A stretch of DNA of 64,000 bases from NCBI GenBank assembly GCA_900321105.1, contig OOHL01000003.1, positions 17,516-81,515 on the forward strand, in the 5' to 3' direction. The stretch is from an uncultured Pseudomonadota bacterium. GTDB taxonomy: Bacteria > Pseudomonadota > Alphaproteobacteria > Rs-D84. The number at the start of each line of letters is the position of its first letter. Within the stretch, counting starts at the first letter, position 1. Position numbers and translations under genes: made by a program. Shown here one piece after another: positions 1-58,582 of this stretch. Below the pieces are notes generated by a model. The model did not search any database and was not told the DNA's origin. It worked only from the letters and a program-made list of their open reading frames with translations.

Positions 1-1249
1 GCGTGTCACCGCATGTACCGATGAATTCAAAGCCTGTATCCAAGACGATGAAAGATGCGGCGAAGATTATTCAAAATGTATTGGATTGGATGAAAATGAT
101 ATTGCTGAACTTTGTCCTGATGATAAATTAACAGCATGTTATCATGAATATGACGGTAAAAAAGAAACAGTACGTGAAACATTGGCAAATGTTGCGAACG
201 GCATAATGTTACAGATTCATTCTGGTTTGGCAGATGCGTGCGAGAACGCAGTCAAAGAAGCGATGATAAAAACATGTGGTAATGCCGAAAATTGTAATGA
301 TTTAATAGTCGGTGACAAGGTTGGATCAAGAAGTTTGGAATTAAAGTTCTGTGAAGTTAATGATGCAAATAATATGTATGCGAATTGCAAAACAGATATC
401 AAAGAAATTATGGATAAAGAATTGGGTAAAACAATTCGTAATGCCGATTTATCAAAAACTAAAAATGACAGACATATTTATACAGGTCTGATATTGGGCG
501 ACATATTATGGAATCAAATAACCCCGTTGCCAGATTATTCCGGTGTTATTTCTGGGGATGAATATATAGAAAAAGTGAAAGACATCGTTTATATGGATGA
601 TAAAACCAAAGACAAAGTTAAAACAGAAGTCGGAGCAATAACAAATATGATAAAAAGCACTATTGCCACCGTAGAGACGGATCCGCGTGTACAATTTTGT
701 ATGACTGGTCGTCAGGTCGCAGGTCTTACTGGCGATGGTGGTTTACAACAATATATTGGCAAAGAAAATAATGCAACCTTTCCAAATATTACACAAAGTG
801 CACGTGTCGCAATTGTTAATGGTGCATTACTTGCCGCACAAAAATATTACAATAACAAATATGATGAATTGATTCAGAAAGCAATTGATGCAAATGCACA
901 ACTTCGCGCGCGTTATGCAGAAATTGATGATGCTAATTTCCATCTTGATGTTCAAGACAGCGCCCGTCAAAAATGTATGGCATTGGGTGAACGCGCTGCA
1001 TTTTCTGACAAGGTCAGTGGTCGTGGCGCCAAAAATGAAATTGTCCGTTCAGGTGGCAAAGATGATAAGTTTGTCGGTTATTCCACAGAATCTACATATA
1101 ATTTCAAACGTCAAGTCACTACAACTTTCAGTATGGATAAAATGATTTGCACAAAATGTGTGCGAACCCAAGAATGCTTTATAACAAAAAGAGATTACTG
1201 TAAAGAATGGGATGAAGAAGAAGAAACCTGTGAAGAGATAAAATATTAA
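1..1249 (+). CDS. C-terminal part of a cysteine-rich secreted protein of the paralogous family; the 5' end lies upstream of the window
   Basis: The frame is open from position 2 with no stop before the listed 86 start. The translation ...ACTDEFKACIQDDERCGEDYSKCIGLDENDIAELCPDDKLTAC aligns with CTKEIKECMQSGDRCGSDYSQCIGLDTNIIMRMCPYDKLPGC of ORF 1252-4002 and the equivalent in ORF 19857-22355. It shares the QFCMTGRQVAG motif and a Cys-rich C-terminus ending CEEIKY. Confidence 0.75.
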   Translation, partial: RVTACTDEFKACIQDDERCGEDYSKCIGLDENDIAELCPDDKLTACYHEYDGKKETVRETLANVANGIMLQIHSGLADACENAVKEAMIKTCGNAENCNDLIVGDKVGSRSLELKFCEVNDANNMYANCKTDIKEIMDKELGKTIRNADLSKTKNDRHIYTGLILGDILWNQITPLPDYSGVISGDEYIEKVKDIVYMDDKTKDKVKTEVGAITNMIKSTIATVETDPRVQFCMTGRQVAGLTGDGGLQQYIGKENNATFPNITQSARVAIVNGALLAAQKYYNNKYDELIQKAIDANAQLRARYAEIDDANFHLDVQDSARQKCMALGERAAFSDKVSGRGAKNEIVRSGGKDDKFVGYSTESTYNFKRQVTTTFSMDKMICTKCVRTQECFITKRDYCKEWDEEEETCEEIKY

Positions 1250-1251
1250 AA

Positions 1252-4002
1252 ATGAAATTGTTTTTGAAAATCTTTATCGCGATTGTTTTGATGGGTAATG
1301 TTTATCCAGCGTTTTCTGCGCGTTCTACTGTTGCGAAACAAAGTGTTGTAAGTATGGGAACAAAAATAGAAGAATCGAAAGCAACACAATCTTCACCTTG
1401 TCAGGAAAAATATGATGCATGTATGGATGCCGGTTGTATTATTGATAATGACAGTGGTGGTCGTTGTCAATGCAGTAATCAAATCAAAGATTTAAATGCA
1501 CAATTAAAACAAATTGAAAAAGATTTTAAAAAGACTGTCGATTTATCTAATGATACACTGGACAGAATCAGTGCCGGTGATATGGTAAATGAAGCATTTG
1601 ATAAATCTGGATTCAATGATGATGACGAAGACGATGAAGATTTGGAAACAGCAAGTGATTCAATCGGTGATAAATTACGCAGTGAAATGCATCAAATATG
1701 TGCTGAAAAAATCCCAGAATGTAAATCGCAATTAACACTGATTAAAAATATGTATGCGCAAAAGGTTAAATCTGATTGTGCTGCATTTGAAAACGCATTA
1801 AAACAACGTGGACGTGAAGGTCGTGCAACGTTGGCAGCGGCGGAAAAAAATGTGCGTGATGCGGCGCTTGATAAATATCAAAATGATAATAAATATGATT
1901 TGGGTCAATGCACATTAGAATTCACAAAATGTATGCAAACAACCGCAGAATGTGGAAGTGATTTCACGGGTTGTGTTTCGACTGTCGGTAAAGAAAGTAT
2001 TTATGGCGGTGTCAAAAATACTGTCGCGATACAGGGGGAAAACTCTTCTATTATAATTGCAAAATCAACAATGGAGATGTTGGAATCTAAAAAAATAATC
2101 TGCGATTCTGTATTGAATAATTGTAAAAAAGTTAAAGATGATGTTTGGGATGCGTTCCTTAAAAACGCTGCACCACAAATTAAATTGGCAGAATCAAAAT
2201 CAGAATCAAATATTCGCACATCTTGTTTGAATAATATTTCGGATTGTTTTGTGAACGCGTGTAAAGATACAATTGACGGAAATGATTCTTATGATGCGTG
2301 TTTAAGTCGTCCGGAAATGGTAAAATCTTTCTGTCGTGTTGAATTGGAACCGTGTTTGGCCGCAACCGGTGGGACATACGATAATCCAGAAAGTTCGACT
2401 TTGTGGCCAAGTATATTGGCAAAATTATCTGCGATGCGTGTTGATTCTTGTACCAAAGAAATCAAAGAATGTATGCAAAGCGGTGACAGATGTGGTTCTG
2501 ATTATTCACAATGTATCGGATTGGATACAAATATAATTATGCGTATGTGTCCGTATGATAAATTACCCGGATGTCAAAAGGTTTATGGCAAAGAACGGGT
2601 GCAGGGTGATGATATTTATGACGAAGTCGCCCAGATTATCGAAGGCACAATATTGAATATTGATAATGAAATGTTGGCAACGTGTGAAACGGCTGTGGAT
2701 AACGCGATGTCAAAGGTTTGCGGTGATACAGAAAGTTGTGCGGCATATGCATTGGGAACAAAAATCGGTGCACAATCTTTGGAATATCGTGTATGTCAAT
2801 ATTCGACAGATTCCCCAGATTCAACCAAGGGATTCAAATGGTTTGATTGTCGTCCGGACATTGAAAGTATTTCAGATTATGAATTGGGACGTAATAAAAA
2901 TGCCACATCGGAAGAATTGGGTTATGTTGCGCCATTTGCCGGTGTTATAACTGGTGTTATTAAATGGGAAAGTGTTGAAATTACAGATGACGGTATGATT
3001 GATGTCGATGCATATGTCGCCGCATTGGATAATGAAAAAGACATTGATATTACCGACCGTGACAAAGAATTAGTTCGTGACGAATTAAATCAATTACAAA
3101 ACGATATCAATCGTGTTATTAAACAGGTAGAAAGCGATAACTTTGTTCAATATTGTATAACCGGACGTCAGGTTCAGGGTGTCACAGATATGTTCAAAGA
3201 TAACAAAGTCCGTTTTCCAAAATTATCAAACACAATACGTAAGAACATAGCCAATGCCGCCCTGCAACAGGCCAAAGATAATTATTATCGTAAATACGAT
3301 AAATTGGCGGAACAAATGCAAACCGATATGGCCGCTATAAATGTCAGATTACATGAAAATCTTAAACTTAATGGTGAAGATGCTAAAAGAATTGCTGCTA
3401 GGGCAGCATGTGTTAATATTGCTTCTATAGCTGTTTTTTCTAAAGCCCCCGTTGGTCAATCATTATGGGCAAAGATTGTTATTGGAATAATAGTTGTTGC
3501 GGCAATAGTTGTGGCAACAGTATTTACGGCCGGTGCAGCAACAGGTGCTATTGCTGGTATTGCTGCTTTTTCTACAACTACTACTCTTACAACTACTGTT
3601 ACAACTTCGTTAGGCGTAATGACGTTAACCGCAACAGTTCCAACGCTTACAGGGGTAGGCAGTGTTATCGTTGCTGCCACAGCTGGGGCTGCTGCTGTGG
3701 CTGGGGTTGCGGGGGCGGCCGCCACTGCTGCACAAGCAGCGGAAGCAGAAAGACAAAATGCTGCATTTATTGATTCGCAACAAAAAAAGCAAGCAGAAAC
3801 ACATGGTGAAAATTTCTTTAGAGAATGGAATTATATGGAAAAAATTACAACCGATTTCGATGATAAAACAATGGTTTGTAAAAAATGTATTTCAAAACGT
3901 TATTGTGAACAAACAAAATGGTCCTTGTTTACCGACAGAACATGCAAAAAATGGGAAACCGACGATTTTGTCGATGAACGTTGCACCGATGTTCAATTTT
4001 AA
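1252..4002 (+). CDS. Cysteine-rich secreted/surface protein, paralogous family member (916 aa)
   Basis: N-terminal signal peptide (MKLFLKIFIAIVLMGNVYPAFSA). Carries the conserved C..KYDACMD..C...GG.C.CS motif, an acidic patch (NDDDEDDEDLE) and the CxSDFxGC, VWDAFL, CLSRPEMVKSFC, DRCGSDYSQCIGLD and QYCITGRQVQG motifs. Has a 90-aa Gly/Ala/Thr/Val hydrophobic low-complexity segment and a C-terminal CKKC..C..C..C terminus. It starts 2 bp after the preceding paralog's stop. Confidence 0.8.
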   Translation: MKLFLKIFIAIVLMGNVYPAFSARSTVAKQSVVSMGTKIEESKATQSSPCQEKYDACMDAGCIIDNDSGGRCQCSNQIKDLNAQLKQIEKDFKKTVDLSNDTLDRISAGDMVNEAFDKSGFNDDDEDDEDLETASDSIGDKLRSEMHQICAEKIPECKSQLTLIKNMYAQKVKSDCAAFENALKQRGREGRATLAAAEKNVRDAALDKYQNDNKYDLGQCTLEFTKCMQTTAECGSDFTGCVSTVGKESIYGGVKNTVAIQGENSSIIIAKSTMEMLESKKIICDSVLNNCKKVKDDVWDAFLKNAAPQIKLAESKSESNIRTSCLNNISDCFVNACKDTIDGNDSYDACLSRPEMVKSFCRVELEPCLAATGGTYDNPESSTLWPSILAKLSAMRVDSCTKEIKECMQSGDRCGSDYSQCIGLDTNIIMRMCPYDKLPGCQKVYGKERVQGDDIYDEVAQIIEGTILNIDNEMLATCETAVDNAMSKVCGDTESCAAYALGTKIGAQSLEYRVCQYSTDSPDSTKGFKWFDCRPDIESISDYELGRNKNATSEELGYVAPFAGVITGVIKWESVEITDDGMIDVDAYVAALDNEKDIDITDRDKELVRDELNQLQNDINRVIKQVESDNFVQYCITGRQVQGVTDMFKDNKVRFPKLSNTIRKNIANAALQQAKDNYYRKYDKLAEQMQTDMAAINVRLHENLKLNGEDAKRIAARAACVNIASIAVFSKAPVGQSLWAKIVIGIIVVAAIVVATVFTAGAATGAIAGIAAFSTTTTLTTTVTTSLGVMTLTATVPTLTGVGSVIVAATAGAAAVAGVAGAAATAAQAAEAERQNAAFIDSQQKKQAETHGENFFREWNYMEKITTDFDDKTMVCKKCISKRYCEQTKWSLFTDRTCKKWETDDFVDERCTDVQF

Positions 4003-14871: not shown

Positions 14872-14906
14872 AAAAAAAACGATAAAATATTTATCGTTTT
14901 TTTTTA
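14872..14906. terminator. Bidirectional hairpin terminator between clpX (+) and ORF 14904-17222 (-)
   Basis: The hairpin aacgataaaatatttatcgtt is flanked by an A-run and a T-run. Confidence 0.65.
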
Positions 14907-17222
14907 TGGTTTACAATATCCCCATAATGCACTGGAACCTGTTTTAATGTAAAAGCTGTTCAATAAATAATCACCAGTAGAATCATGAATACCATCACTG
15001 TTTTTATCTGTCCATGGAATATCAACCCATGTCCCAGATTGGTCAGAACATTCTTGTGATAAAGACAAAACCAGTTGTGTGCGAACCTTTTGCATAACTT
15101 TATCAATATCAGATAACAAAGATTCTGATACTGTATAACTTGTCTTTGACGGTCGACGACAATTCTGAAGCGCATATCTTACAAGTTGTTGATACAAAGA
15201 ACCAATGTAAGACGTCCCACATGTCATATATATATCAGAAGATGATTGCACGGGGGCTAGTTTGCCGCCATAACAAGTATAAGTTTTTGGACATTGTTTG
15301 CATTCCGTTGCACCAGTTGTTGCAAAATAAACTCCTGTGTTGTCTTCATCTGTTTCATCAAACTTATACAAATAATATCCAGGTTTACATTCCTTATATA
15401 TTTTTGTATATCCTATGGAACAATAATCTTGATATGCTGCATGTGAATACGTAGATGTTTGTGCAGTGGTTGTAATCAAAATATCGTTTTGGGAAAAAGG
15501 GTTATATGATGTTTCATTGCATATTTCAACACGTGCATATCGCGATTCCCCTGGAGCATATTTGCGACAACCATAAGGATAAGAATGTGCTGAATCACCA
15601 GTCTGGATAGCACATCTGCTTTCTACAAATGTTGTTAATAAATCATAACACGATTGTTCGATTGTCGCATCTGTGATGCCTGTCATTGCAGCAACTAATG
15701 TTGTAAGACCTTCTTCGCCACCACCATATAAATTACTGCAAGTATTTAATTTATCAGCACACATTTCTTCGGATAATTCCAATGTTTGTCCCAAGTTAAT
15801 TTTTGTATCTGTATCTGAAAAATTTTTTAATTGGTCTGATTGTTTCAGATAACATTCGTTAACAACTTTCAAACATTCATCTTTGACTGTTTTTACTCGT
15901 GCTTGTTGTCCTTGGTATATTTCGACAATTGCTTGTCGTAAGAATTCGTCCCATACATCTTCGGCATCATCACGACATAAATCCAGACTTTTTGATGCAA
16001 AATTACGTTTTTTGTTAAGCATACTTATAAATGATGTGTTTTGGCTGTTTTTTAAAACATCACCTGATAACGATAATTGGTTTTCAATCTGATAAAATTC
16101 AGGCGAATATATTGGTTGTCCAGTTGATATATTCAAATATTTACCAGAAAAATCTAAACAGTGAATATATCCATTTCCACAGGCTGAATCTGCCGTTATA
16201 TCTTTACGAACATTTGCAATACAATCATTTATGCTGGACGAATTGTGTGCATTATAATTTTCGAGACGCGCATCTTGCATTTTATGACGTGTTGATCGTA
16301 TTGATGCATTTGCATTGGTGGTTTTTGTTTGCAGATTATTTTCAAGTAAAGAGCAATCATTTTCAACGTACATGCCGTATGCAGATGCAACCATTTTCAA
16401 ATCAGATGATGCACAAGTTTCTGTGACAAGTTCTGAACATTGGGCATGTACCGCATTGAATAAAGCTTCGCCGGTAAGATTTGCAATGTCTGCACCGCCA
16501 ATCAAATTTGTTGTTGACCAAATAGATTTTATATCACCAGCAATGTCTACATTTCCCTTGGTCGATAGCGATTGAGATTTTGTATTACTAAGCACACCAG
16601 AAATATTTTTCAATGTATTTGCGCTTTCAGACGTATCCTTTTTGATCGCAGATTCACCATCTGTAGCGGATAACATCGCTTTTACTTCTTTGGATGTTTT
16701 TGATATCATGTCGATATTTAAATCTTGAAAGTCTTGTAAACTTTCTGCGGTTTGTGATAAAAGCCTTTCTTTGTTTTGTATATCTTTTAATTTTGAAGAA
16801 CAAACACATCGACGGTACGTTTCGTTTTGCGTAGCGCAAAATTGATCCATACATGTAAAATATGCATCGCGACAAGAATTATAATTTGATCCGAAAGTTC
16901 TTGTTTTTACAGTAGCGGCAGCGCGCGCCAATCTTGAAGCTTGTGTTGCAACCGCAGAACGAACAGCTTGGTGATTTTGTGTCGCACTTCGCCCGGTGAC
17001 AATCTTTGTATTTGGTGTACGTGCGGTTGTCTTTCTGGTGGTGACATCTGCAGATGCGTTACGCGATGTTATAGAACGGCTTGTATTGGTATCTGTTTTT
17101 TGTCGTGTTGATGACGATAGGCGTGATGTTGTTGGTGTTGCAGTATTCTGGGTACGCAAAGCAGCATTGACCCCGTCAACGCATAAAAACAGACCAAGCA
17201 AAACAACAAAAACCTTTCTCAT
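14904..17222 (-). CDS. Cysteine-rich secreted protein, divergent member of the paralogous family (772 aa)
   Basis: Signal peptide MRKVFVVLLGLFLCVDGVNA. Has a Thr/Ser/Arg-rich linker. SCRDAYFTCMDQFC......RRCVCSS matches the family N-terminal motif and CRDDAEDVWDEFLRQA matches the VWDxFL motif. About 35 Cys. The C-terminus differs from the other members. Confidence 0.75.
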   Translation of the reverse strand: MRKVFVVLLGLFLCVDGVNAALRTQNTATPTTSRLSSSTRQKTDTNTSRSITSRNASADVTTRKTTARTPNTKIVTGRSATQNHQAVRSAVATQASRLARAAATVKTRTFGSNYNSCRDAYFTCMDQFCATQNETYRRCVCSSKLKDIQNKERLLSQTAESLQDFQDLNIDMISKTSKEVKAMLSATDGESAIKKDTSESANTLKNISGVLSNTKSQSLSTKGNVDIAGDIKSIWSTTNLIGGADIANLTGEALFNAVHAQCSELVTETCASSDLKMVASAYGMYVENDCSLLENNLQTKTTNANASIRSTRHKMQDARLENYNAHNSSSINDCIANVRKDITADSACGNGYIHCLDFSGKYLNISTGQPIYSPEFYQIENQLSLSGDVLKNSQNTSFISMLNKKRNFASKSLDLCRDDAEDVWDEFLRQAIVEIYQGQQARVKTVKDECLKVVNECYLKQSDQLKNFSDTDTKINLGQTLELSEEMCADKLNTCSNLYGGGEEGLTTLVAAMTGITDATIEQSCYDLLTTFVESRCAIQTGDSAHSYPYGCRKYAPGESRYARVEICNETSYNPFSQNDILITTTAQTSTYSHAAYQDYCSIGYTKIYKECKPGYYLYKFDETDEDNTGVYFATTGATECKQCPKTYTCYGGKLAPVQSSSDIYMTCGTSYIGSLYQQLVRYALQNCRRPSKTSYTVSESLLSDIDKVMQKVRTQLVLSLSQECSDQSGTWVDIPWTDKNSDGIHDSTGDYLLNSFYIKTGSSALWGYCKP

Positions 17223-17291
17223 CCTGTACTTTTAAATAATAATAACAAAAATAAGATATTTTAAGCAAGGGTATTTTACAAAATTTTGAAA

Positions 17292-17316
17292 TAAAAAAAA
17301 TCCACAAAAGTGGATT
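17292..17316 (-). terminator. Rho-independent terminator downstream of infA
   Basis: On the minus strand the hairpin atccacttttgtggat is followed by a T8 run. Confidence 0.65.
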
Positions 17317-17323
17317 TGTTTCT

Positions 17324-17578
17324 TTATTGATGATTTGGTGCACCATCTGCGGTTGCATGTGTTCGTTCAACAAATGTTATACGACCTTTGTCTAAATCAT
17401 AAGGTGTCATTTCAACATGTACCTTTTCACCAACATTAACCCAAATGCGAGCCTTGCGCATTTTGCCGCACACGGTTGCCAATATCACATGTCCATTTTC
17501 AAGACGAACACGGAACATAGTGTTTGGTAACCTTTCTTCGACTGTACCTGAAAAAACAATTACATCATCTTTTGCCAT
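17324..17578 (-). CDS. infA: Translation initiation factor IF-1
   Basis: [42 protein letters not shown]... is the canonical S1-like IF-1. The listed 127-aa ORF is an upstream extension. Confidence 0.9.
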
Positions 17579-17651
17579 AAATTTAATCCTTGGTTTTTGA
17601 CCATATAATAATATTAACCATAAAATTAAAAAGCAAGACTTTTTTATATGC

Positions 17652-17680
17652 TTGCAAGGTTTAATATTTTTTGATAAAAT
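17652..17680 (+). promoter_or_regulatory. Candidate sigma-70 promoter (TTGCAA-N17-TAAAAT) for the tandem cysteine-rich genes
   Basis: The hexamers with 17-bp spacing lie about 25 bp upstream of the ATG at 17706. Confidence 0.4.
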
Positions 17681-17705
17681 AACATAAAAATGTAGGAATG
17701 TGCAC

Positions 17706-19838
17706 ATGAAAATATTGAGATTTTTACCAATTTTGTTGGTTTTGCCATCTGTCGTGTATGGGGCTTCACGTGGGGATTCAGAGATGCGTGTTGGTATAGT
17801 GCGTGGATCTCAGGCTGCTTCGCGCATATCTGTCGGGGCCGCGGAAGTAAAAGCTGTACGTGAGTCTGCAGAGAAAATACTGCAATCAAATGAAAAAGAT
17901 GGTTCTAAAAAATTACCATCTATTTCAGGATATGCGACCGAAAGTCCTGCGAGTGATTGTCGTGATGCGTATCGTGAATGTATGGATAATTTTTGTTTGT
18001 TGGACGAAAGCCAGGGTGAACGTTGTGCGTGTTCTGATAATATAGAACGTGCAAAAAGCAAAATTCAGGCTGTTCTTGATATCCAGGCAGAAGCAGACAA
18101 ATTGTATACCGAGGGTGTTGAACGTGAACAACTGGGTGCCAAGGCGCGTTTAGTTTTTGCTGATAACACCAGTACCAAGGTTTCAACTGCGAATTTCATG
18201 GCATGGTTGGGCGCCGGAGAAGAAGATGAAGAAGAAGAAGTTGGCGAAGATGTGACGATGGGTGATGATTTGTACCAAATGGCTGTTAAGTATTGTCAGG
18301 CTGAATTAGATGCTTGTGGCAGTAAGGCCGAAATGGAATCCATGCTTTATACGCGCATGATAACCCAAGATTGTAAAAATTATGATGCATATCTGGCAGA
18401 CCAGAAAGCAAATGCGGAATCCAATAAACGTATCGCAGAATCTGCGGTTCGCAAGGCACGTCTTGAAATGTTAGACACGACAAATAAATATAACCGTGGT
18501 GAATGTTTGTTGGCATATCGTTCATGTATCGCAGACAAGGGTGGTTGTGGTTCTAATTTTGAAAACTGTTTAGATGAAAAATTATTACAACGTCGTTCAA
18601 ATGCCTGTGAAAACGTGTTGGATCAATGTATGGCGGTTCGTGATTATGTTGTTAAAGATTGGGCGGCAGAATCTAAAAGTGTTTTGGCAGAAGCAGCAAA
18701 ATATGCGGATAAATATGAACGTGCAACATGTTTGGCAAAGGTGCAACTTTGTTTGGAAGAAGGGTGTTCAACATCAACAAATGCGGAATGTTTAACAGAT
18801 GTAAATGTCGCTGCTGGTGTATGTCCAATTATTACAGAATGTGACGCAAAGATACCAGGCTTCCAGGCTGTTGTAAACGATAAGTTGGGATATTTGCAAA
18901 CAAAGTTCTGTGAAAATGATGTTGATAAATGTCTGCAAGATAAGTGTGGTGTTGATTTTACGAAACCAGAATGTGTTGGTAAAAAACCGTATGAAATCGC
19001 GGCGCTTTGTCCACAGAGTATGTTCCCTTCTTGTAAGACTGCAACACAATTTGATGTGATTGTTCAGGCTGCAATCTTGCAAATGGATTATCAAATGATG
19101 CAGGGCTGTGTGAATTATTTTGGTGAACAACTGGGCAAGGTTTGTGGTACAGATATGGCGTGTTTACCAATTGATACAACTGTTGAATCTTTAATCAATT
19201 TGCCTGATACCGAAGAAGGTTTGGCAGATTTACGTAAAACGGTTGTTGCAAATTCTGATGCATCGGTCGAAGAATTCTTTAAACAATTTGAACAAGATAA
19301 AACTGTGGCTGCTTGTTCGGATTCTCAAAGTGTTGACGCGTCAAAGAAAGTAAAGGGTAAAAACACATTGGGGGTAAGTGTATTTAATACTGCAAAATTA
19401 TTGGCGAAAATGGCAGCAGAAAATCGTAATTTACGCGAACTTGATTCTAAAATTGCAGAATTGGCACGTAAAAAAGAATTAAAAGAAGCAGAACAAATTT
19501 GTTTGAAAACTTATAAACCTGAAAAACCAGATGATTCTAAAACGAATTACAGTTATATAAAAAGTGTTTCGTTTGAACCACAACTTCGTAATTGTCATGT
19601 TTGCAGATTGCAACAGGTGTGCGAAGAAGGTGGCGAATCAAAAGCATCTGCGGCATTGAAAGCTGCGGCTGGTGGTTTGTCGGCTGGCGCATCGACTGGA
19701 ACAATGATAAATGCCGGATGGGGAACCGCAATTGGTGGTATTATAGGTGCGGTTGGTGCCGGTGCATTAGGTGCGGCATCTGGTGGTAAAAAAGAATTCT
19801 GTCAAGAAATCGAATCTTGCGAAGATATAAATATGTAA
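17706..19838 (+). CDS. Cysteine-rich secreted/surface protein, paralogous family member (about 710 aa)
   Basis: Signal peptide [19 protein letters not shown]. Carries the [14 protein letters not shown]......GERCACSD motif and the acidic patch [12 protein letters not shown]. Also [20 protein letters not shown], a G/A-rich hydrophobic segment [40 protein letters not shown], and a terminus NCHVC...CEDINM. Confidence 0.8.
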
Positions 19839-19856
19839 AACTTTGGAGAAAATAAA

Positions 19857-22355
19857 ATGAAAAAAGTATTGCATTTTGGGTTGGTTTTTGGATTGTTTGC
19901 GGCTTTTGTTGGTGCGACAGATTCTTTCGCTGCGACAAAAAAAAGTTCGTCAAAAAAACAATCTGCGATTCAAGTTGGAACCAAGGTTCGTGCCAAAGTC
20001 GAAGCGACAGGAATTTATGACGAAGAATGTTATAATAAATATTTTGGTTGTATGGATCAATTCTGTATCGCAGATAATGAAAACGGCGGAACATGTATGT
20101 GCAGTGATGATGCCGCAAAATACGATGAACAGCTGGAATCAATCAAAAAAACTTTAGCAGAAGCAGAACGTATAGGTACCGAAGAAGTTGAAAGAATTCA
20201 AGCTGGTGCAAATGCAGACATCATATTCAATGGTGGTGAACGTATTTATAACGATGATGGTTCTATTGTAAAGGCTGGTGAAAAGAAGAAAGATACAATT
20301 ACATGGTCTTCTATATACGATATGGAAGATGATGAAGAATATGATGACGAATGGGCAGATATTGATTTGTCTGACAAAGTCGGCAGGGAATTATACACAT
20401 CTGCACATCAATTATGCCGTGAACAAATGCCAGATTCTTGCAACAAAGATATGACGCTTTTGACGCAAATGTATTCGCGTCAAATCATTTCTGATTGCAA
20501 GGGGTTGGCAAATTCTATTGCACAAAAGAAACAGGAAGCAGATTCTATGTTAGCAAAAGCAAGAGCTGCGGTTCGTGGTGCATTAAAGGAAAGTTTCGAA
20601 GAATCTAATAAATATGATCGTGGAACATGTATGGTTGAATATAAACATTGTATGCAAAGTGCAGATGCTTGCGGTTCTGATTGGAGTAATTGTGTATTTA
20701 CAATAGCATCCGAGAATATGCAAAACAATGAGGCAACCAGTGTTGCTGGAACAAAAGTTAGTACAGTTAACATATATGATATTACAGCATCCACAATGGA
20801 AATATTAGAATCAAAACGTTTTATCTGTGAAAAAGTTTTAGACAGTTGTGTCGCGGTTCGTGACTATGTCTGGAACGATTTCTTGCGTGAAGCAGCACCA
20901 ACAATACGATTGGCAGAACAAAATGTAGAATCACAAAAACGTCAATCTTGTTTGTCTGATATTTCGAATTGTATCCAAAAGGCATGTAAAGATGATATAG
21001 CAGGTAAGGGCGTTGACACAATGGATGCGTGCCTTGCACGTCCAAGTATGGCACGTTCATTCTGCAAGATTCAAATTGAACCATGCGAAAGAATGGAACC
21101 ACAAATTTGGGATTATGTGGTAAGTAAATTGGCGGCAATGCGCGTTGATGCATGTACCGCGGAAGTAAAAGAATGTTTTACATCCGAAGACAGATGTGGC
21201 AAAGATTTTTCAAATTGTATTGGTATGGATTTCAATTATATACACGATATCTGTCCAATTGATAAATTGGTTGTATGTAAACAAGCAAACCCAGATTTCA
21301 AAATGTCAGATTTGGATTCTATGTTGATGGGATTATATTTGAACATAGATAACAAGGCTTTGGAAAATTGTCAAAATCTGGCTGAACAAAAAATGACAGA
21401 ATTATGTGGTTCGACAACTGATTGTAATTCGTTTGCCGCCGATGAATTTATCGGGACCAGTTCCGTTAAATCACAAAAAGACGGAACGACATATCGTGTG
21501 ACCGGTATGATATCTTTCGGTTCAATTAAAATGGGTGATGCCACAGGTTCTGTAACAGATGGTGGACGCGTTTTGGCACCTGGTGAAATCGGGGTCGCTG
21601 ATTATATCAAATCGGTAAAAGCTAAAAATGTAAATGTTCCAAATGCCGAAGCAATAATCACATCTATCGAAGAAGAATTGAATAATATTGCCGGTACAAT
21701 TAACAGGACTGTATCTTTCTTGGAATCAGATCAACAAATATCTTATTGTATCAATGGGCGTGATTTATCACAAATAAACGGCAAGGGTTCAGAAAATAAC
21801 GCAACGGTTGCGCGTTTCCCTAATTTATTGAATCAATATCGTGTTATGATTGGTATGGCCGCTTTACGTAAAGCACAAGACAATTATAATAAAAAAGTTA
21901 ATGATGCGATTGCTGATGCAACCAAAAATGCATCCGCAGACGTTGCACAATATATGTGTCAAAAAATTGCAGATTCCAGAACATCACGCAGTTCGGGAAA
22001 TGAAATTGTTGAACAGACACCTTTGACAACGCCGTTCTCTATATCATACGAAGTGGGGGCTGGTTTGAATACGGCGACATTATTAAAGGGTGGGTCTGGC
22101 ACATCAAATAACACAATGGCTGGTAAATTTAAAAACAGTGGTTATCTGGGCGGTTCATCAGCATCTGGTTTAGGTGGTGTTATGAAAGATGTGACGGCAA
22201 CATTTGATCGTGAATCAAGAAATTGTCATGTTTGCACAACATTAACCACACAATCTTGTAAAACAACGGGGTCAACATCTTGGTTCCATAACAGCAGAAA
22301 CCAATCTTGTGAGACTAAGACGGCAGACCCGTATTGTGAAGATATCAAAATGTAA
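19857..22355 (+). CDS. Cysteine-rich secreted/surface protein, paralogous family member (832 aa, about 36 Cys)
   Basis: Signal peptide ending in the typical motif ECYNKYFGCMDQFC......GGTCMCSD. Acidic patch DMEDDEEYDDEWADIDLSD. Has the CGSDWSNC, VRDYVWNDFL, CLARPSMARSFC, DRCGKDFSNCIGMD, ICPIDKL and SYCINGRDLSQ motifs. Terminus NCHVC...SCK...SCE...YCEDIKM. Confidence 0.85.
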   Translation: MKKVLHFGLVFGLFAAFVGATDSFAATKKSSSKKQSAIQVGTKVRAKVEATGIYDEECYNKYFGCMDQFCIADNENGGTCMCSDDAAKYDEQLESIKKTLAEAERIGTEEVERIQAGANADIIFNGGERIYNDDGSIVKAGEKKKDTITWSSIYDMEDDEEYDDEWADIDLSDKVGRELYTSAHQLCREQMPDSCNKDMTLLTQMYSRQIISDCKGLANSIAQKKQEADSMLAKARAAVRGALKESFEESNKYDRGTCMVEYKHCMQSADACGSDWSNCVFTIASENMQNNEATSVAGTKVSTVNIYDITASTMEILESKRFICEKVLDSCVAVRDYVWNDFLREAAPTIRLAEQNVESQKRQSCLSDISNCIQKACKDDIAGKGVDTMDACLARPSMARSFCKIQIEPCERMEPQIWDYVVSKLAAMRVDACTAEVKECFTSEDRCGKDFSNCIGMDFNYIHDICPIDKLVVCKQANPDFKMSDLDSMLMGLYLNIDNKALENCQNLAEQKMTELCGSTTDCNSFAADEFIGTSSVKSQKDGTTYRVTGMISFGSIKMGDATGSVTDGGRVLAPGEIGVADYIKSVKAKNVNVPNAEAIITSIEEELNNIAGTINRTVSFLESDQQISYCINGRDLSQINGKGSENNATVARFPNLLNQYRVMIGMAALRKAQDNYNKKVNDAIADATKNASADVAQYMCQKIADSRTSRSSGNEIVEQTPLTTPFSISYEVGAGLNTATLLKGGSGTSNNTMAGKFKNSGYLGGSSASGLGGVMKDVTATFDRESRNCHVCTTLTTQSCKTTGSTSWFHNSRNQSCETKTADPYCEDIKM

Positions 22356-22357
22356 AT

Positions 22358-22386
22358 TAAACCACCCAAATGGGTGGTTTTTTATT
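22358..22386 (+). terminator. Rho-independent terminator after the tandem cysteine-rich genes
   Basis: The hairpin aaccacccaaatgggtggtt is followed by a T-run. Confidence 0.7.
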
Positions 22387-22822: not shown

Positions 22823-22848
22823 AATGCCCATTTGGGCATTTTTTTTAT
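22822..22848 (+). terminator. Rho-independent terminator
   Basis: The hairpin aaatgcccatttgggcattt is followed by T8. Confidence 0.7.
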
Positions 22849-22897
22849 TGCTTTGTTCTTTTTTTTATGTGTTTTTTGTGGTATAATTTATTCCATA

Positions 22898-23884
22898 ATG
22901 AAACTGATAAAATCTTTGTTTTCAATTGCTGTTATGTTGTGCACAATTCCATCATTTGCGAATTGGCAATCAAACGGTTATTACATAAATGACAGTTATT
23001 ACAGCGATGATGGTTCCCGATTTGTTGTTGGTTTGCGCGGCGGTGTATCTTTTGCCAGTGCAAAGATGAAAAATGATGTTGGTTCTTTAGATGCAGAATA
23101 TTGGGTCAGCACAACAACAGGTCAGGTTATATCAGATTTAAGATACGATTTAGCTGGTGGTGCAGAGACTTTGCCCGATTTTGTATACGCAGGTACCGGT
23201 AATATTGGAACATTACCAGTAAAGGAAAAATTTTCGAAAACAATATTTACAGCCGGTGCCAGTGTTGGGTTTACTGTGCCTAATTATTCCCAGTGGCGTC
23301 TAGAGGCCGGATATGATTATATTTCCGAAACTAATTATAACCAGGTACCATTGTTTGAAGGTGAAATGCAATTATCTGGTGGCGTTATTGGTGATGCGGT
23401 TGCGCATGTTTCAAGTACTGGTGCGACAGCAACGATTTCAACAGACATTATTTCTGTAATGGCTTATTATGATTTTTTTGAAGGCAATCAAAAGCAATTA
23501 AATACCTTGATTCCATACGTTGGATTTGGACTTGGTTATGCCAGTTCGCGTACCACATTAAAATTAGCAGATATATATGGTGATTTGACTTTGGATTCAG
23601 ATTTACAAAATTACGGGACGATTGAAAATGATGTCTTGCAATTTGAACCGCCGACCGATAAATCTAAATATCCAACTTCAAATAACATTGCTGTAATCGG
23701 CGCGTTGGGTGTTTCGTACGGGATAAGCGAATATACTTTCTTGGATTTTAGTGCACGTCTTATGTATGTCCCAACAATTAAATGGGAATTAACAAATTCA
23801 GATGGAACACAACATCGTGAATGGTTCAGTGCAGATAATATGTTATACACCAATTTGATGGTTGGTTTGCGTTTTGAATTTTAA
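22898..23884 (+). CDS. Outer-membrane beta-barrel protein (OMP/porin-like)
   Basis: Signal peptide MKLIKSLFSIAVMLCTIPSFA. Has alternating amphipathic strands and an aromatic-rich C-terminus ending GLRFEF (terminal Phe). Confidence 0.6.
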   Translation: MKLIKSLFSIAVMLCTIPSFANWQSNGYYINDSYYSDDGSRFVVGLRGGVSFASAKMKNDVGSLDAEYWVSTTTGQVISDLRYDLAGGAETLPDFVYAGTGNIGTLPVKEKFSKTIFTAGASVGFTVPNYSQWRLEAGYDYISETNYNQVPLFEGEMQLSGGVIGDAVAHVSSTGATATISTDIISVMAYYDFFEGNQKQLNTLIPYVGFGLGYASSRTTLKLADIYGDLTLDSDLQNYGTIENDVLQFEPPTDKSKYPTSNNIAVIGALGVSYGISEYTFLDFSARLMYVPTIKWELTNSDGTQHREWFSADNMLYTNLMVGLRFEF

Positions 23885-25003: not shown

Positions 25004-25984
25004 ATGTTGGATTTTTTTGTAAAATCTGTTGACAAAACAAAAAATATGTCTATAATATATAGTATGAAAACAGAAATACAGGCTCCTCATGGACGTGAAA
25101 CATATATCGCCGATTTTGGCGATGGGCTTGTTATGAAACGTCCGTTACCGGAATTTTCACAGGTCGAAAAAGATAAATGGTTGGCAAAACAACATCGAAC
25201 CAAAGATGTTATTGATGAAATTAACGCGGTCAATAACCCTGTATATAGTATTCCTTATATGTTGCACATCAAGGATGATGAATATCAATTGTTGGAAGAA
25301 CGTGCACCAGGTGTACCTTTGACTTCGGATTTATATAAAAGTTTAACTGGTCGTCAACGTTATGAAATTGTAACAAGCCTTGCGCATTTTTTGGTTGATA
25401 TGAATGAATTAAAAACTGTCAAAGAAGAAACTGTGCACAGAATGTCCAACGAATTAAAAATGCAAAAATTGCAGAATATTATCGGCAATAAAATGCCAAA
25501 ATGGTTTGATTTGGGCAGTGTGAAATATGTATCAAAAGTAATAGAGCGCGTTCATGATTTTGAATACGTAACAAGAAAAGCATGGTCGCATTGTGATTTG
25601 AATTCGGGGAATGTTTTGTATGATGCAGAAGCAAGCAGGTTGTATTTGATTGATTTTGCCGAATCAGACTACAACTTTATCTTTCGTGACATTTTTTCAC
25701 CATTGGCTGTTGATTTAGATATTTGTGAACCAATATATGAAGAATATTTCAAATTACATGATGAAGACAAATATCTTATCTATAGTCCAAACAGCCCAGA
25801 ATTACAAAACATTATGAAGTATCGTAAGATAACTGTTTTATTAAAACGTTTCACAAAAGCAGGGGATGATTTAAGACTGAATCCACAATCTGAAAAAACA
25901 AAACAGAATAATATTGAAAAGATTGAGTTTATGAAAGATTTAATAGCAAGAATACGATATATTGAAAAACAATTAACAAAATAA
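25004..25984 (+). CDS. Phosphotransferase of the APH/choline-kinase-like family
   Basis: Brenner motif SHCDLNSGNVLYD (HxDxxxxN) is followed by LIDFAESD. The true start is possibly an internal Met (MSIIYSMK / MKTEIQ). Confidence 0.6.
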   Translation: MLDFFVKSVDKTKNMSIIYSMKTEIQAPHGRETYIADFGDGLVMKRPLPEFSQVEKDKWLAKQHRTKDVIDEINAVNNPVYSIPYMLHIKDDEYQLLEERAPGVPLTSDLYKSLTGRQRYEIVTSLAHFLVDMNELKTVKEETVHRMSNELKMQKLQNIIGNKMPKWFDLGSVKYVSKVIERVHDFEYVTRKAWSHCDLNSGNVLYDAEASRLYLIDFAESDYNFIFRDIFSPLAVDLDICEPIYEEYFKLHDEDKYLIYSPNSPELQNIMKYRKITVLLKRFTKAGDDLRLNPQSEKTKQNNIEKIEFMKDLIARIRYIEKQLTK

Positions 25985-26012
25985 AAAATGCCAAAATGGC
26001 ATTTTTTATTTT
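25984..26012. terminator. Bidirectional hairpin terminator between the kinase (+) and the Fic gene (-)
   Basis: aaaaatgccaaaatggcattttt forms a hairpin. Confidence 0.65.
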
Positions 26013-26806
26013 TAACGAATTTTTGATGTTTGTAATTGCTGTATTATTTTATTTTGTGAAGAATACATCGCGCCCATCATATATTTATAATATTTTTTTG
26101 TGTCGCCTTTGGCCATATCCATAAGAGAAGATGGGTATAATTCTTTGTCTGTTTTTCTGGTAAAAGCAATTGGTCTGTATCCTTGTTCCAATAACAACCA
26201 ATTCATAACCATTCTGGCGGTACGTTTGTTGTAATCATCGAAAGGTTGTAAAACTATCATTTTATAATGTGCATCAAATGCACGAATAACAGGGTGTTTG
26301 TTGGTGCATTTGGATTCATAAATGATATTTTCCAATGCGTTTTCTATTTCCATAGGTATATTTGTTTTTCTTATTACACCGGGACGAATAAAAGTGTCGT
26401 TTATTTTGATGTTGTGTTCATTGCATATTAAATAATGAATATTGCATACTTCTTGGAATGTTAATTCCGCCTTTTTTGTTGTTTGTTCAAGAATATAATC
26501 ATATGCCAATCCCAGACCACGTGTACAGCTGTGGTCAAAATAAGGTTTTTGTTCTTTTGTTGGCATAAAAAACAATGTTTTAGGTTCTGAAAAAGATATT
26601 TCTTGGCGTAACCAATCAAAATTATTCAAACGTCTAGTACAAGAACCTGATAGCATTTTTGATATCAAAGATTTGTTTTGTTCAATGCGCGCAATAAGCC
26701 CCGGGGATGTTTCCGGATGTTTTCTTAAAGAACGATGTTTTTTATTTTTGGTCATGGATGTGCACCTTGTTTTTATATAAAATAGCACAAAAAACAAGTT
26801 TGTCAA
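26012..26806 (-). CDS. Fic/Fido domain protein with a degenerate active-site motif
   Basis: Fido-like core. The segment VLQPFDDYNKRTARMV aligns to the Fic motif HPFx[DE]GNGRxxR, with His replaced by Gln and both Gly replaced (Y and K). Confidence 0.6.
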   Translation of the reverse strand: MTNLFFVLFYIKTRCTSMTKNKKHRSLRKHPETSPGLIARIEQNKSLISKMLSGSCTRRLNNFDWLRQEISFSEPKTLFFMPTKEQKPYFDHSCTRGLGLAYDYILEQTTKKAELTFQEVCNIHYLICNEHNIKINDTFIRPGVIRKTNIPMEIENALENIIYESKCTNKHPVIRAFDAHYKMIVLQPFDDYNKRTARMVMNWLLLEQGYRPIAFTRKTDKELYPSSLMDMAKGDTKKYYKYMMGAMYSSQNKIIQQLQTSKIR

Positions 26807-26894
26807 TCTTTTGTGGAAGAAAAAACAGTTAAAAATCGTGTTGCGCTGGATTCCTTTTTTTATTATGATTTCCCAAAAAGGAAAGGATATTCAG

Positions 26895-39958: not shown

Positions 39959-40101
39959 ATATTGTCCCAGCAATTATATATAATATATTTTATTTTTCAA
40001 ATAAATAATTTTCATAATATGATTTTATTCATATATAAAAAACTTGCTTAAAATTTTTTAATGTTCTAGGCTTTATGTATGAAAGAAAAAGGAGAGCTCT
40101 C

Positions 40102-57285: not shown

Positions 57286-58017
57286 CTACATAGTGAAATT
57301 TTCGCCCAGATAAACTTTTTTAACCATTTCGTCTTTGACGATTTCGTCGGTTGTTCCGTGTTTCAAAATTTTTCCATCGTGCAATACATAACTGCGGTCG
57401 GTAATGCCCAATGTTTCACGAACATTATGGTCTGTAATAATAACACCCAATCCACGATGTTTCAATTGTGATACTAATTCACGAATTTCGTTCACTGCGA
57501 TTGGGTCAATTCCTGCAAATGGTTCGTCCAACAAAATAAATTTAGGATCGTTTGCCAATGCACGTGCAATTTCAACACGACGACGTTCGCCGCCCGATAA
57601 AGCTGTCGCAGGGCTTTTACGTAAAAACGCAATTGAAAATTCATCCAAAAGTGCGTTTAATTTTTCTTCGCGTTTGGCGCGATTCGGTTCAACTATTTCA
57701 AGAATTGCCATAATATTATCTTCGACAGAAAGACCACGAAACACGCTGTTTTCCTGGGGCAGATAGCCAATGTGCAAACGTGAACGTTGATAAAAAGGCA
57801 AATGTGTGATATCTTGAGAATTTAAAAATATTTGTCCGCTTGTCGCTGCTAATTGTCCAGTGATACAATAAAATGCGGTTGTTTTTCCAGCACCATTTGG
57901 ACCCAACAATCCAACCGATTCGCCTTGGTTTGCGATTAAAGATATGTCGCGCAAAACAACACGTTTCCCATAATTTTTTGACAAGTGTTCAACACGTAAT
58001 ACTGATTGTTTTATCAT
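57286..58017 (-). CDS. lptB: LPS export ABC transporter ATP-binding protein LptB
   Basis: Walker [13 protein letters not shown] signature [15 protein letters not shown]. Confidence 0.9.
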
Positions 58018-58493: not shown

Positions 58494-58582
58494 GTCACCA
58501 GTGTAGCGATTTATAAATAAAAATGCAATTTTTATATTTATATAATCTTTTTTTTGTGATATAATATAAGCCAAAGAGAGAG

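What the first reader, a model, noticed from the sequence alone, without database searches (positions are those of the whole stretch)
21990..22355. Conserved cysteine-rich C-terminal terminus C-E-[DE]-I-[KN]-x shared by four paralogs; a possible sorting or metal-binding module
Four independent proteins end with CxxC followed by two or three spaced cysteines and a near-identical last hexapeptide. Examples are NCHVCTTLTTQSCKTTG...[31 protein letters not shown]...[24 protein letters not shown]...CKKWETDDFVDERCTDVQF and ICTKCVRTQECFITKRDYCKEWDEEEETCEEIKY. The element always follows the Gly/Ala hydrophobic segment, and it is well conserved although the paralogs are divergent elsewhere. This suggests a functional C-terminal module, for example a zinc knuckle on the cytoplasmic side of a TM anchor, or a secretion/sorting tag.
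Basis: seen in the sequence. Interest (0 to 1): 0.65.

Follow-up and report, generated by a model that had tools for sequence, protein, structure and literature searches.

The report
Cysteine-stapled C-terminal domain, uncharacterised family
The conserved cysteine-rich ending is real, but it is most likely the last small, probably disulfide-stapled domain of one uncharacterised family of large exported proteins found only in genome-reduced gut Alphaproteobacteria, not a cytoplasmic zinc knuckle or a general sorting tag.

Summary
The four quoted termini exist: A 1082-1249, B 3811-4002, D 19551-19838 and E 22179-22355. Each has five cysteines (C-x2-C-x5/7-C-x7..60-C-x5..14-C) and ends five residues after the last one in C-[ET]-[DE]-[IV]-x-[MFY].

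They are not independent. A, B, D and E, plus tail-less C (14904-17222, minus strand), are full-length paralogs with Sec signal peptides, about 36 mostly invariant cysteines and no Pfam, NCBIfam or PDB match. More than 1000 homologs were found, all from uncultured gut and rumen Alphaproteobacteria (Candidatus Enterousia, order Rs-D84).

- 348 of 360 homologs end exactly at this position.
- A tail profile searched against 1.84 billion proteins found only this family.
- C2 and C5 are lost together in 10 variants, from at least three independent events. C1, C3 and C4 are never lost.
- 89% of full-length members have an even cysteine count.
- AlphaFold predicts a four-stranded sheet.
- In D, the Gly/Ala segment sits inside the module as a low-confidence helical hairpin. 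A and E have no hydrophobic segment.

Best reading: an extracytoplasmic, disulfide-stapled beta domain whose variable C3-C4 loop may contact a membrane or partner. The tail is no better conserved than the protein body. The family is new and its function is unknown. Interest is moderate.

The parts
19857..22355 (+). Gene E, 832 aa. A Sec-exported, 36-Cys, mostly helical protein. The finding's coordinates are its last 121 codons.
   Evidence: ORF. A 100% identical protein, P0001, exists in public assemblies. AlphaFold2 model has pLDDT 74.8. No Pfam, NCBIfam or PDB hit.
22179..22352 (+). C-terminal module of E (residues 775-832). Predicted strands are 775-784, 789-804, 815-822 and 826-831. Cys codons start at 22224, 22233, 22257, 22308 and 22335. 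It ends CEDIKM.
   Evidence: All five Cys are invariant.
17706..19838 (+). Gene D, 710 aa from the ATG at 17706 (the ORF list starts at a GTG at 17700). It lies 18 bp upstream of E with no terminator-like site between them, so the two are probably co-transcribed.
   Evidence: (ortholog P0121 is 710 aa).
19551..19835 (+). C-terminal module of D. Predicted strands are 616-624 and 629-641, followed by the insertion, then strand 697-709. Cys codons start at 19593, 19602, 19620, 19800 and 19818. It ends CEDINM.
19629..19793 (+). A 55-residue Gly/Ala-rich hydrophobic insertion between Cys3 and Cys4 of D ([16 protein letters not shown]...[26 protein letters not shown]). It is predicted as a helical hairpin at low confidence.
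   Evidence: Tail alignment. Conserved in D orthologs. AlphaFold2 helices 646-666, 672-681 and 688-691 have pLDDT below 50. No Pfam glycine-zipper hit.
1252..4002 (+). Gene B, 916 aa, 38 Cys. It lies 2 bp downstream of A.
3442..3741 (+). Hydrophobic Ala/Gly/Thr/Val-rich region of B (residues 731-830), upstream of its tail. It has a 35-40 aa strongly hydrophobic core and is not followed by basic residues.
   Evidence: Hydropathy analysis, and the same feature in B homologs.
3811..3999 (+). C-terminal module of B (WNYMEKITTDF...CKKC...CTDVQF). Cys codons start at 3877, 3886, 3904, 3943 and 3982.
2..1249 (+). Gene A. Its 5' end is cut by the window start. A-type tails occur on full-length proteins of about 850 aa elsewhere (for example P0440, 852 aa).
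1082..1246 (+). C-terminal module of A (ends CEEIKY). Cys codons start at 1148, 1157, 1175, 1199 and 1229. No hydrophobic segment precedes it.
14904..17222 (-). Gene C, 772 aa. A fifth paralog that shares the N-terminal Cys framework but lacks the tail and ends WGYCKP. The arrangement C(-), infA(-), D(+), E(+) is conserved.
   Evidence: BLASTP to B, D and E. Synteny in 80 of 80 related loci, with infA present in 77.
22359..22380 (+). Terminator-like hairpin plus T-run, directly after the stop codon of E.
   Evidence: consensus scan only.

Best explanation
The element is the C-terminal domain, about 55-60 residues, of a lineage-specific family of large (about 700-1000 aa) proteins. These proteins are Sec-exported, mostly alpha-helical and very cysteine-rich.

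The domain is a small four-stranded beta sheet:
- beta1 = [WY]-N-[YF]-x-E-x-[IV]-T-[ST]-x-F
- beta2 carries C1-x2-C2 and C3
- beta3 carries C4
- beta4 = C5-[ET]-[DE]-[IV]-x-[MFY]-COOH

I propose that it folds outside the cytoplasm and is stapled by disulfides. C2-C5 follows from co-loss of the two residues. C3-C4 is suggested only by the predicted strand register. C1 would then pair with a cysteine in the body, or with another chain.

The conserved last hexapeptide is simply the final beta strand. Its two hydrophobic side chains, at the last and third-from-last positions, would point to one face of the sheet.

The C3-C4 loop at the tip of the beta2-beta3 hairpin is the variable, functional part. 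It is 7-60 residues long, usually net positive and carries paired hydrophobic residues. In D it has expanded into a roughly 55-residue Gly/Ala-rich helical hairpin. The most likely role of the domain is to dock the protein onto a membrane leaflet or an envelope partner.

What is shown and what is inferred:
- Shown: conservation, family restriction, the Cys co-loss pattern, the even Cys counts, and the position of the insertion inside the module.
- Predicted by AlphaFold2, at low confidence over the D insertion: the sheet and the helical hairpin.
- Inferred: the disulfides other than C2-C5, the compartment, and the membrane or partner docking.
For: Exported and oxidised:
- Signal peptides are present on B, C, D and E.
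- E and A have no hydrophobic segment beyond the signal peptide.
- About 44 columns are invariant Cys across 142 sequences, including all five tail Cys.
- 237 of 266 full-length members have an even Cys count, mostly 36 or 38. An even-number Cys bias in exported proteins is an accepted indicator of disulfide formation (PMC2823432).

C2-C5 pairing:
- Of 495 tails, 478 have all five Cys. Ten lack C2 and C5 together, two lack C2 only, and none lacks C1, C3 or C4.
- The co-losses fall into at least three separate lineages. P0415 and P0426 are each 60% identical to a five-Cys tail but at most 48% identical to any other C2/C5-less tail.
- Full-length members lacking C2 and C5 have 36 Cys, where many related B-like members have 38.

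Fold:
- AlphaFold2 predicts strands 775-784, 789-804, 815-822 and 826-831 in E. Ten-residue block pLDDT is 83-88 over most of the strands and 60-63 over residues 801-820, which include the C3-C4 loop, C3 and C4.
- In D the same sheet closes around a helical insertion.

One family only:
- The tail profile found 140 hits among 1.84 billion representative proteins, nearly all at the extreme C-terminus.
- 62 of the 66 hits of at least 200 aa also match the body profile. The other four are two spurious repeat proteins, one family fragment and one read-through chimera.

Loop properties:
- The C3-C4 loop has mean net charge +1.7, and 93% of loops carry paired large hydrophobic residues.
- The segment from C4 to the end is net negative in 94% of tails.

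Constraint: 348 of 360 homologs end exactly five residues after C5.
Against: - No model coordinates were available, so no Cys-Cys distance could be read. Only C2-C5 has sequence support.
- The organisms are anaerobes reported to lack respiratory chains (PMC12306168). No Dsb-type oxidase was seen in this 64-kb window. How about 18 disulfides per protein would form is therefore unexplained.
- B-type proteins have a strongly hydrophobic segment of 35-40 aa before the tail. If that segment crosses the inner membrane once, the B tail would be cytoplasmic.
- The membrane-docking role of the loop rests on composition only. The Gly/Ala insertion matches no Pfam glycine-zipper family and is modelled with pLDDT below 50.
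- The odd number of Cys in the tail is also compatible with an intermolecular bond or a metal site.
Confidence: 0.55

Rival explanations
1. C-terminal recognition signal. The free, strictly positioned hydrophobic terminus (hydrophobic, any residue, hydrophobic, then the free carboxyl) is read by an envelope factor. Candidates are a PDZ-domain protease or chaperone (Ctp or DegP type), or the BAM/TAM machinery. The signal would serve targeting, quality control or processing. This can coexist with the disulfide-stapled fold.
For: - 348 of 360 homologs end exactly five residues after C5, and the last residue is always M, F, Y or L.
- The third-from-last residue is usually I, V, L or T.
- Classical outer-membrane proteins in the same window also end in an aromatic residue: RFEF and FRANF.
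- A PDZ-containing S41 protease (Ctp) is encoded at 26811-28346.
Against: - The module is confined to one family, and no dedicated sorting enzyme is adjacent.
- Ctp is a housekeeping gene and lies within 10 kb in only 19 of 80 syntenic loci.
- About 3% of homologs carry extensions of 1-30 residues after the motif.
- The last strand is six residues long, is preceded by acidic residues and is predicted as part of a small sheet, not a membrane-spanning barrel strand.
- No Pfam or NCBIfam sorting-signal model matched.
Confidence: 0.15
2. Oligomerisation module. Because the tail has an odd number of cysteines, one of C1, C3 or C4 forms an intermolecular disulfide. This would link two copies, or two different paralogs (the genes occur as tandem pairs A-B and D-E), into a covalent envelope lattice. 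The C-terminal cystine-knot domains of mucins and von Willebrand factor work this way.
For: - Five invariant Cys per tail, and C2-C5 accounts for only two of them.
- The paralogs are encoded as tightly linked pairs, with gaps of 2 bp and 18 bp.
- The C, D, E gene arrangement is conserved in 80 of 80 loci.
Against: - Total Cys counts are even in 89% of members. Fully intramolecular pairing, with one tail Cys bonded to a body Cys, is therefore the simpler reading.
- An intermolecular bond would leave a second unpaired Cys in the body.
- No multimer prediction could be run.
Confidence: 0.15
3. Metal-binding site. Either the reader's cytoplasmic zinc knuckle behind a TM anchor, or a periplasmic Cys3 metal site formed by C1, C3 and C4.
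For: - The tail has a CxxC on a beta hairpin plus spaced Cys.
- C1, C3 and C4 are never lost.
- His follows C1 in the E and D types.
- The tail profile gives weak, non-significant hits to the eL40 zinc ribbon, E = 0.06-0.7.
- B-type proteins have a hydrophobic segment before the tail.
Against: - Signal peptides are present, and A and E have no TM segment, so those tails are exported.
- In D the hydrophobic segment lies inside the module.
- There is only one CxxC, and its second Cys co-varies with C5 rather than with C1.
- The His after C1 is not conserved in the B type, where the motif reads CKKC, CEKC, CQKC or CTKC.
- There are no basic residues after the hydrophobic region of B.
- No zinc-ribbon or zinc-knuckle family matched in Pfam.
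- Even Cys parity fits disulfides.
Confidence: 0.08

Closest known systems
Small disulfide-stapled C-terminal domains of large secreted cysteine-rich proteins, such as the C-terminal cystine-knot (CTCK) domain of mucins and von Willebrand factor. This comparison is from general knowledge and was not tested here.
   Same: - A short, beta-rich, Cys-dense domain at the extreme C-terminus of a long exported, Cys-rich protein.
- An odd Cys count in the domain.
   Different: - No sequence or fold match to anything solved: nothing in PDB by profile or by Foldseek at E below 1.
- Five Cys rather than eleven.
- Bacterial origin.
- Dimerisation has not been shown.
Tripartite C-terminal sorting signals: LPXTG/sortase, PEP-CTERM/exosortase, GlyGly-CTERM/rhombosortase and MYXO-CTERM.
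   Same: - A conserved motif at the extreme C-terminus of exported proteins.
- Present on several paralogs in one genome.
- In B it lies near a hydrophobic segment.
   Different: - The order is reversed or the segment is absent. The hydrophobic segment comes before the motif in B, sits inside it in D, and is missing in A and E.
- The terminus is acidic, not basic.
- The motif occurs on one family only.
- No NCBIfam or Pfam model matched, and no sorting enzyme is adjacent.
C-terminal beta-signal of outer-membrane beta-barrel proteins.
   Same: - The terminal residue is hydrophobic or aromatic, with a hydrophobic residue two positions before it.
- It is almost always the true C-terminus.
   Different: - The strand is six residues long and acidic.
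- It is preceded by Cys and predicted as part of a four-stranded soluble sheet after a largely helical protein.
- Genuine outer-membrane proteins in the window end in RFEF and FRANF.
Glycine-zipper membrane hairpins of small outer-membrane lipoproteins (SlyB/Pcp, Rickettsia 17-kDa antigen type). This comparison is from general knowledge.
   Same: - The D insertion ([24 protein letters not shown]) and the B segment (VFTAGAATGAIAGIAAF) are Gly/Ala-rich with GxxxG-like spacing.
- The D insertion is predicted as two helices.
   Different: - No Pfam glycine-zipper family matched, even at E = 10.
- Model confidence over the insertion is below 50.
- Here the hairpin is a loop insertion in a Cys-stapled sheet, not a lipoprotein domain.
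Giardia variant-specific surface proteins (CXXC-rich ectodomain, TM helix, invariant CRGKA tail). This is an analogy from general knowledge.
   Same: A multi-paralog, Cys-rich exported family with a near-invariant C-terminal pentapeptide or hexapeptide.
   Different: - Eukaryotic, with a cytoplasmic tail behind a single TM helix.
- Here orthologs are highly conserved, so there is no sign of antigenic variation.
- The tail is part of an exported beta domain.

Membership tests
Tripartite C-terminal sorting signals (LPXTG, PEP-CTERM, GlyGly-CTERM, MYXO-CTERM and similar) | A signature motif, followed by a TM helix, followed by a basic cluster at the extreme C-terminus. | tested here: not met
   The tails end in an acidic strand plus one hydrophobic residue. 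No TM segment follows the motif. NCBIfam and Pfam gave no sorting-signal hit at E up to 1.
Tripartite C-terminal sorting signals | The tag occurs on several unrelated proteins of a genome, together with a dedicated sorting enzyme. | tested here: not met
   The tail profile searched against 1.84 billion proteins hit only this family. Neighbouring genes are housekeeping genes.
Zinc ribbon / zinc knuckle | Four metal ligands, usually as two CxxC or CxxH knuckles, that are conserved or lost together. | tested here: not met
   There is one CxxC only. C2 is lost together with C5 while C1, C3 and C4 stay. There is no Pfam zinc-finger hit. The eL40 hits are not significant.
Zinc ribbon / zinc knuckle | Located in the reducing cytoplasm. 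| tested here: inconclusive
   Signal peptides, and the absence of a TM segment in A and E, argue for export. The insertion sits inside the module in D. The B-type hydrophobic segment leaves a formal possibility. No experimental topology exists.
Zinc ribbon / zinc knuckle | Stoichiometric metal binding. | not testable with these tools
   This needs metal analysis of purified protein.
Outer-membrane protein beta-signal / beta-barrel | A C-terminal membrane-spanning amphipathic strand of a beta barrel that ends in an aromatic residue. | tested here: not met
   AlphaFold2 gives a four-stranded sheet after a helical protein. The last strand is six residues long. There is no OMP or autotransporter Pfam hit, unlike ORF 40075-43557.
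Glycine-zipper families (Gly-zipper_Omp, Rick_17kDa_Anti and similar) | Match to the family profile. | tested here: not met
   Pfam scans of the D insertion and of the B hydrophobic region at E up to 10 listed no glycine-zipper family.
Thioredoxin-like redox CxxC | A CxxC whose two Cys form the redox pair at the N-terminus of a helix in a thioredoxin fold. | tested here: not met
   The CxxC lies in a predicted beta strand. C2 co-varies with C5, not with C1. There is no thioredoxin Pfam hit.
Exported disulfide-bonded protein (general class) | A signal peptide, an even-number Cys bias, and Cys lost in pairs. | tested here: met
   The principle is from PMC2823432.
Exported disulfide-bonded protein (general class) | The genome encodes a periplasmic disulfide oxidase (DsbA/DsbB, VKOR or similar). 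| not tested
   Only this 64-kb window could be read, and none was seen in it. The order is reported to lack respiratory chains.

The most novel reading that the evidence does not exclude
The five paralogs may be the building blocks of a so far undescribed, disulfide-cross-linked envelope or cell-contact structure. The hosts are genome-reduced, probably partner-dependent gut Alphaproteobacteria (order Rs-D84). In this reading the Cys-stapled C-terminal domain is a new type of membrane foot. Its beta2-beta3 loop ranges from a short hydrophobic or basic tip to a full Gly/Ala helical hairpin, and inserts into the bacterium's own outer membrane or a partner's membrane.
Probability: 0.15. Interest if true: 0.7.

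Novelty: new variant of a known kind. Interest (0 to 1): 0.4.

Why it matters
Candidatus Enterousia and its order Rs-D84 are widespread in rumen, horse, chicken and human guts. Their genomes are below about 1 Mb with very limited metabolism, and they may depend on partner cells (PMC12306168).

The window alone holds five paralogs of this family, about 12 kb in total. That is more than 1% of such a genome. Their orthologs and gene order are strongly conserved, yet they have no annotation, no Pfam family and no structural relative.

Three results give concrete starting points for finding out what these proteins do at the cell surface:
- the domain layout of the family
- the C2-C5 pairing
- the unusual placement of a hydrophobic hairpin inside the C-terminal domain

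The practical lesson for the scan is that the conserved tail is the end of a homologous domain, not a portable tag.

Tried and rejected
- Pfam and NCBIfam scans of all five paralogs gave no family above threshold.
- PDB sequence-profile searches found nothing with the full-length profile. The tail profile gave only non-significant eL40 hits.
- A Foldseek search of the E model against PDB found nothing at E below 1. The top rows were levivirus coat proteins and secretin or CapZ fragments at E of 1.6 or more, treated as noise.
- A Pfam scan of the Gly/Ala insertion of D and the hydrophobic region of B found no glycine-zipper family.
- Profile-profile comparison of the family with two other unannotated Cys-containing secreted ORFs (5107-7254 and 35841-37808) gave probability 2%, so they are not related.
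- A heme-binding CxxCH site was rejected. The motif is C-H-x-C with no following His, and the His is not conserved in the B type.
- A link to the nearby Ctp PDZ protease was rejected as a specific association. Ctp lies within 10 kb in only 19 of 80 loci.
- The literature has nothing on these proteins.
- Model coordinates were not obtainable, so the disulfide map beyond C2-C5 could not be read.
Full report
**What is at the coordinates.** Positions 21990-22355 are the last 121 codons and the stop codon of an 832-codon ORF, gene E (19857-22355, + strand).
- D, 17706-19838, ends CEDINM.
- B, 1252-4002, ends CTDVQF.
- A, 2-1249, is cut by the window start and ends CEEIKY.

Each tail has exactly five cysteines, arranged C1-x2-C2-x5/7-C3-x7..60-C4-x5..14-C5-x5-COOH. 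Only these 4 of 351 stop-to-stop segments of at least 60 aa in the window fit that pattern.

**The four proteins are paralogs, not independent proteins.**
- BLASTP aligns them over most of their length: B-E 33% over 730 aa, D-E 27% over 469 aa, A-B 34% over 358 aa. A fifth paralog, C (14904-17222, minus strand), shares the N-terminal part but ends WGYCKP without the tail.
- B, C, D and E start with Sec-type signal peptides. They contain 30-38 cysteines each.
- None has a Pfam or NCBIfam match or a PDB relative by sequence profile.
- In a 142-sequence full-length alignment about 44 columns are invariant cysteines, including all five tail cysteines (E C790, C793, C801, C818, C827).
- The tail is not better conserved than the body. 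Mean top-residue frequency is 0.445 in the tail and 0.462 in the body. E-B identity is 30% in the tail and 36% in the body. The tail stands out to the eye only because it follows a poorly conserved, gap-rich linker (E residues about 701-780).

**Distribution.**
- Each of B, D and E retrieves more than 1000 homologs.
- A scan of one genome per species found at least 564 encoding loci. Among the 80 loci kept, all but one mislabelled bin are titled as uncultured Alphaproteobacteria or proteobacteria. They come from rumen, horse, chicken and human gut, and many are named Candidatus Enterousia.
- This genus belongs to order Rs-D84. Its genomes are below about 1 Mb, lack respiratory chains, and the organisms may be partner-dependent (PMC12306168).
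- The gene order C(-), infA(-), D(+), E(+) is kept in 80 of 80 loci, with infA present in 77, down to about 59% identity.
- D and E are 18 bp apart with no terminator-like site between them, and a terminator-like hairpin follows E. A and B are 2 bp apart.

It is not. 348 of 360 homologs, at about 35-100% identity to their query (most B homologs about 40%), end exactly five residues after C5. The last residue is M in the E and D types, F in the B type, and occasionally Y or L. About 3% carry short C-terminal extensions.

**Is it a portable tag?** I built a 72-sequence alignment of the tail and searched it as a profile against 1.84 billion representative proteins.
- There were 140 hits, almost all at the extreme C-terminus of the hit.
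- Of the 66 hits of at least 200 aa, 62 also match a profile of the family body. The other four are two spurious repeat proteins, one family fragment and one read-through chimera.
- The shorter hits are gene fragments from the family's linker or hydrophobic regions.

The module therefore occurs only on this family, which argues against a generic sorting tag.

**Cytoplasmic zinc knuckle or exported disulfide domain?** Five observations point to the exported, disulfide-bonded reading.
1. A and E have no hydrophobic segment after the signal peptide. Their tails share the compartment of the exported body.
2. In D the Gly/Ala hydrophobic stretch is not before the module. It is inserted between C3 and C4, and this is conserved in D orthologs. 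AlphaFold2 predicts strands 616-624 and 629-641, then three helices (pLDDT below 50), then strand 697-709. Both ends of the insertion must lie on the same side.
3. Among 495 tails, 478 have all five cysteines. Ten have lost C2 and C5 together, two have lost C2 only, and none has lost C1, C3 or C4. The co-losses come from at least three lineages. Full-length members without C2 and C5 have 36 cysteines, where many related B-like members have 38. Pairwise loss is the signature of a disulfide.
4. 237 of 266 full-length members (89%) have an even number of cysteines after the signal peptide. Such a bias is an accepted indicator of disulfide formation in exported proteins (PMC2823432).
5. The hydrophobic region of B is not followed by basic residues. 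A stop-transfer anchor with a cytoplasmic tail would normally have them.

**Fold.**
- The AlphaFold2 model of E (pLDDT 74.8) is mainly long helices.
- It ends in four strands at 775-784, 789-804, 815-822 and 826-831. Ten-residue block pLDDT is 83-88 over most of the strands and 60-63 over residues 801-820, which contain the C3-C4 loop as well as C3 and C4 themselves.
- The conserved hexapeptide is the last strand.
- Foldseek against PDB gave nothing at E below 1. The other fold libraries were unavailable.
- From the strand register, C3 and C4 would face each other across the beta2-beta3 hairpin. C1 would then pair with a body cysteine or with another chain.

**Where the variation lies.**
- The C3-C4 loop is 7-60 residues long. 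It is net positive on average (+1.7) and carries paired large hydrophobic residues in 93% of distinct tails, for example SWFH, PLFG, FLGIG or the K-rich KVKGTKVKKKN.
- The segment from C4 to the end is net negative in 94% of tails.
- D's 55-residue Gly/Ala hairpin is the extreme form of this loop.
- I therefore propose that the loop is a contact surface for a membrane or partner. This rests on composition only, and no Pfam glycine-zipper family matches.

**Caveats.**
- The disulfide map beyond C2-C5 is not established.
- These anaerobes reportedly lack respiratory chains, and I could not check their genomes for Dsb-type oxidases. None is in this window.
- B-type proteins have a strongly hydrophobic segment of 35-40 aa before the tail. 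A single membrane pass cannot be formally excluded there.
- Recognition of the free hydrophobic C-terminus by an envelope factor, and an intermolecular disulfide through the odd cysteine, both remain possible. Neither conflicts with the fold.

**Verdict.**
- The interpretation as a conserved functional module holds. The specific proposals do not: cytoplasmic zinc knuckle behind a TM anchor, and generic sorting tag.
- What is there is the probably disulfide-stapled C-terminal beta domain of a new, unannotated family. The family is lineage-specific and makes up more than 1% of a reduced genome.
- The function of the family is unknown. The most likely role of the tail is a structural cap and docking foot in the cell envelope.

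Noticed in passing
window 5107-7254 (+), 34933-35841 (+), 35841-37808 (+), 58583-59368 (+): Four further ORFs start with a signal-peptide-like N-terminus, contain cysteines (715 aa with 26 Cys; 302 aa; 655 aa with 18 Cys; 261 aa) and have no Pfam match. Two of them were compared with the family profile by hhalign and gave probability 2%. They are therefore separate unknown exported proteins.
   Followed up: partly
window 14904-22355, and loci L001-L080: The divergent gene arrangement C(-), infA(-), D(+), E(+) is conserved in 80 of 80 related loci, down to about 59% protein identity. Downstream genes (BOF protein, OMP, M23 peptidase, Ctp) are kept only among the closer relatives.
   Followed up: yes
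window 25004-25984 (+) and 26012-26806 (-): An APH/choline-kinase-like ORF and a Fic-domain ORF sit between the M23 peptidase and Ctp. They are present in only 11 and 7 of 80 syntenic loci, so this is a variable insert in otherwise conserved surroundings.
   Followed up: no
protein P0489: A 287-aa metagenomic protein starts with the tail module. It has Lys in place of the terminal Met and stop (CKEVKK...), and continues into a different Cys-rich sequence. It is probably a read-through or an assembly chimera.
   Followed up: no
window 22832-23884 (+) and 40075-43557 (+): A 350-aa ORF with no Pfam match ends in RFEF, like a classical outer-membrane protein. A 1160-aa autotransporter (PF03797) ends in FRANF. 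Together with LptB/LptC (57286-58574, minus strand) and an OmpA-family protein (59475-60863), they indicate a diderm envelope with LPS.
   Followed up: partly
window 22359-22380: A perfect 9-bp stem hairpin with flanking T/A runs lies directly after the stop of gene E. It scores as terminator-like on both strands.
   Followed up: no
E-type homologs, aligned to window 22260-22307: The C3-C4 loop of E orthologs falls into distinct subtypes: SWFHN, ILFFD/FLGIG, and a lysine-rich KVKGTKVKKKN. The rest of the tail stays constant across them. This suggests lineage-specific tuning of one loop.
   Followed up: partly
window 7336-8436 (-): An N6/N4 DNA methyltransferase with a C-terminal RAMA domain (CcrM-like). 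No adjacent restriction enzyme was noticed.
   Followed up: no
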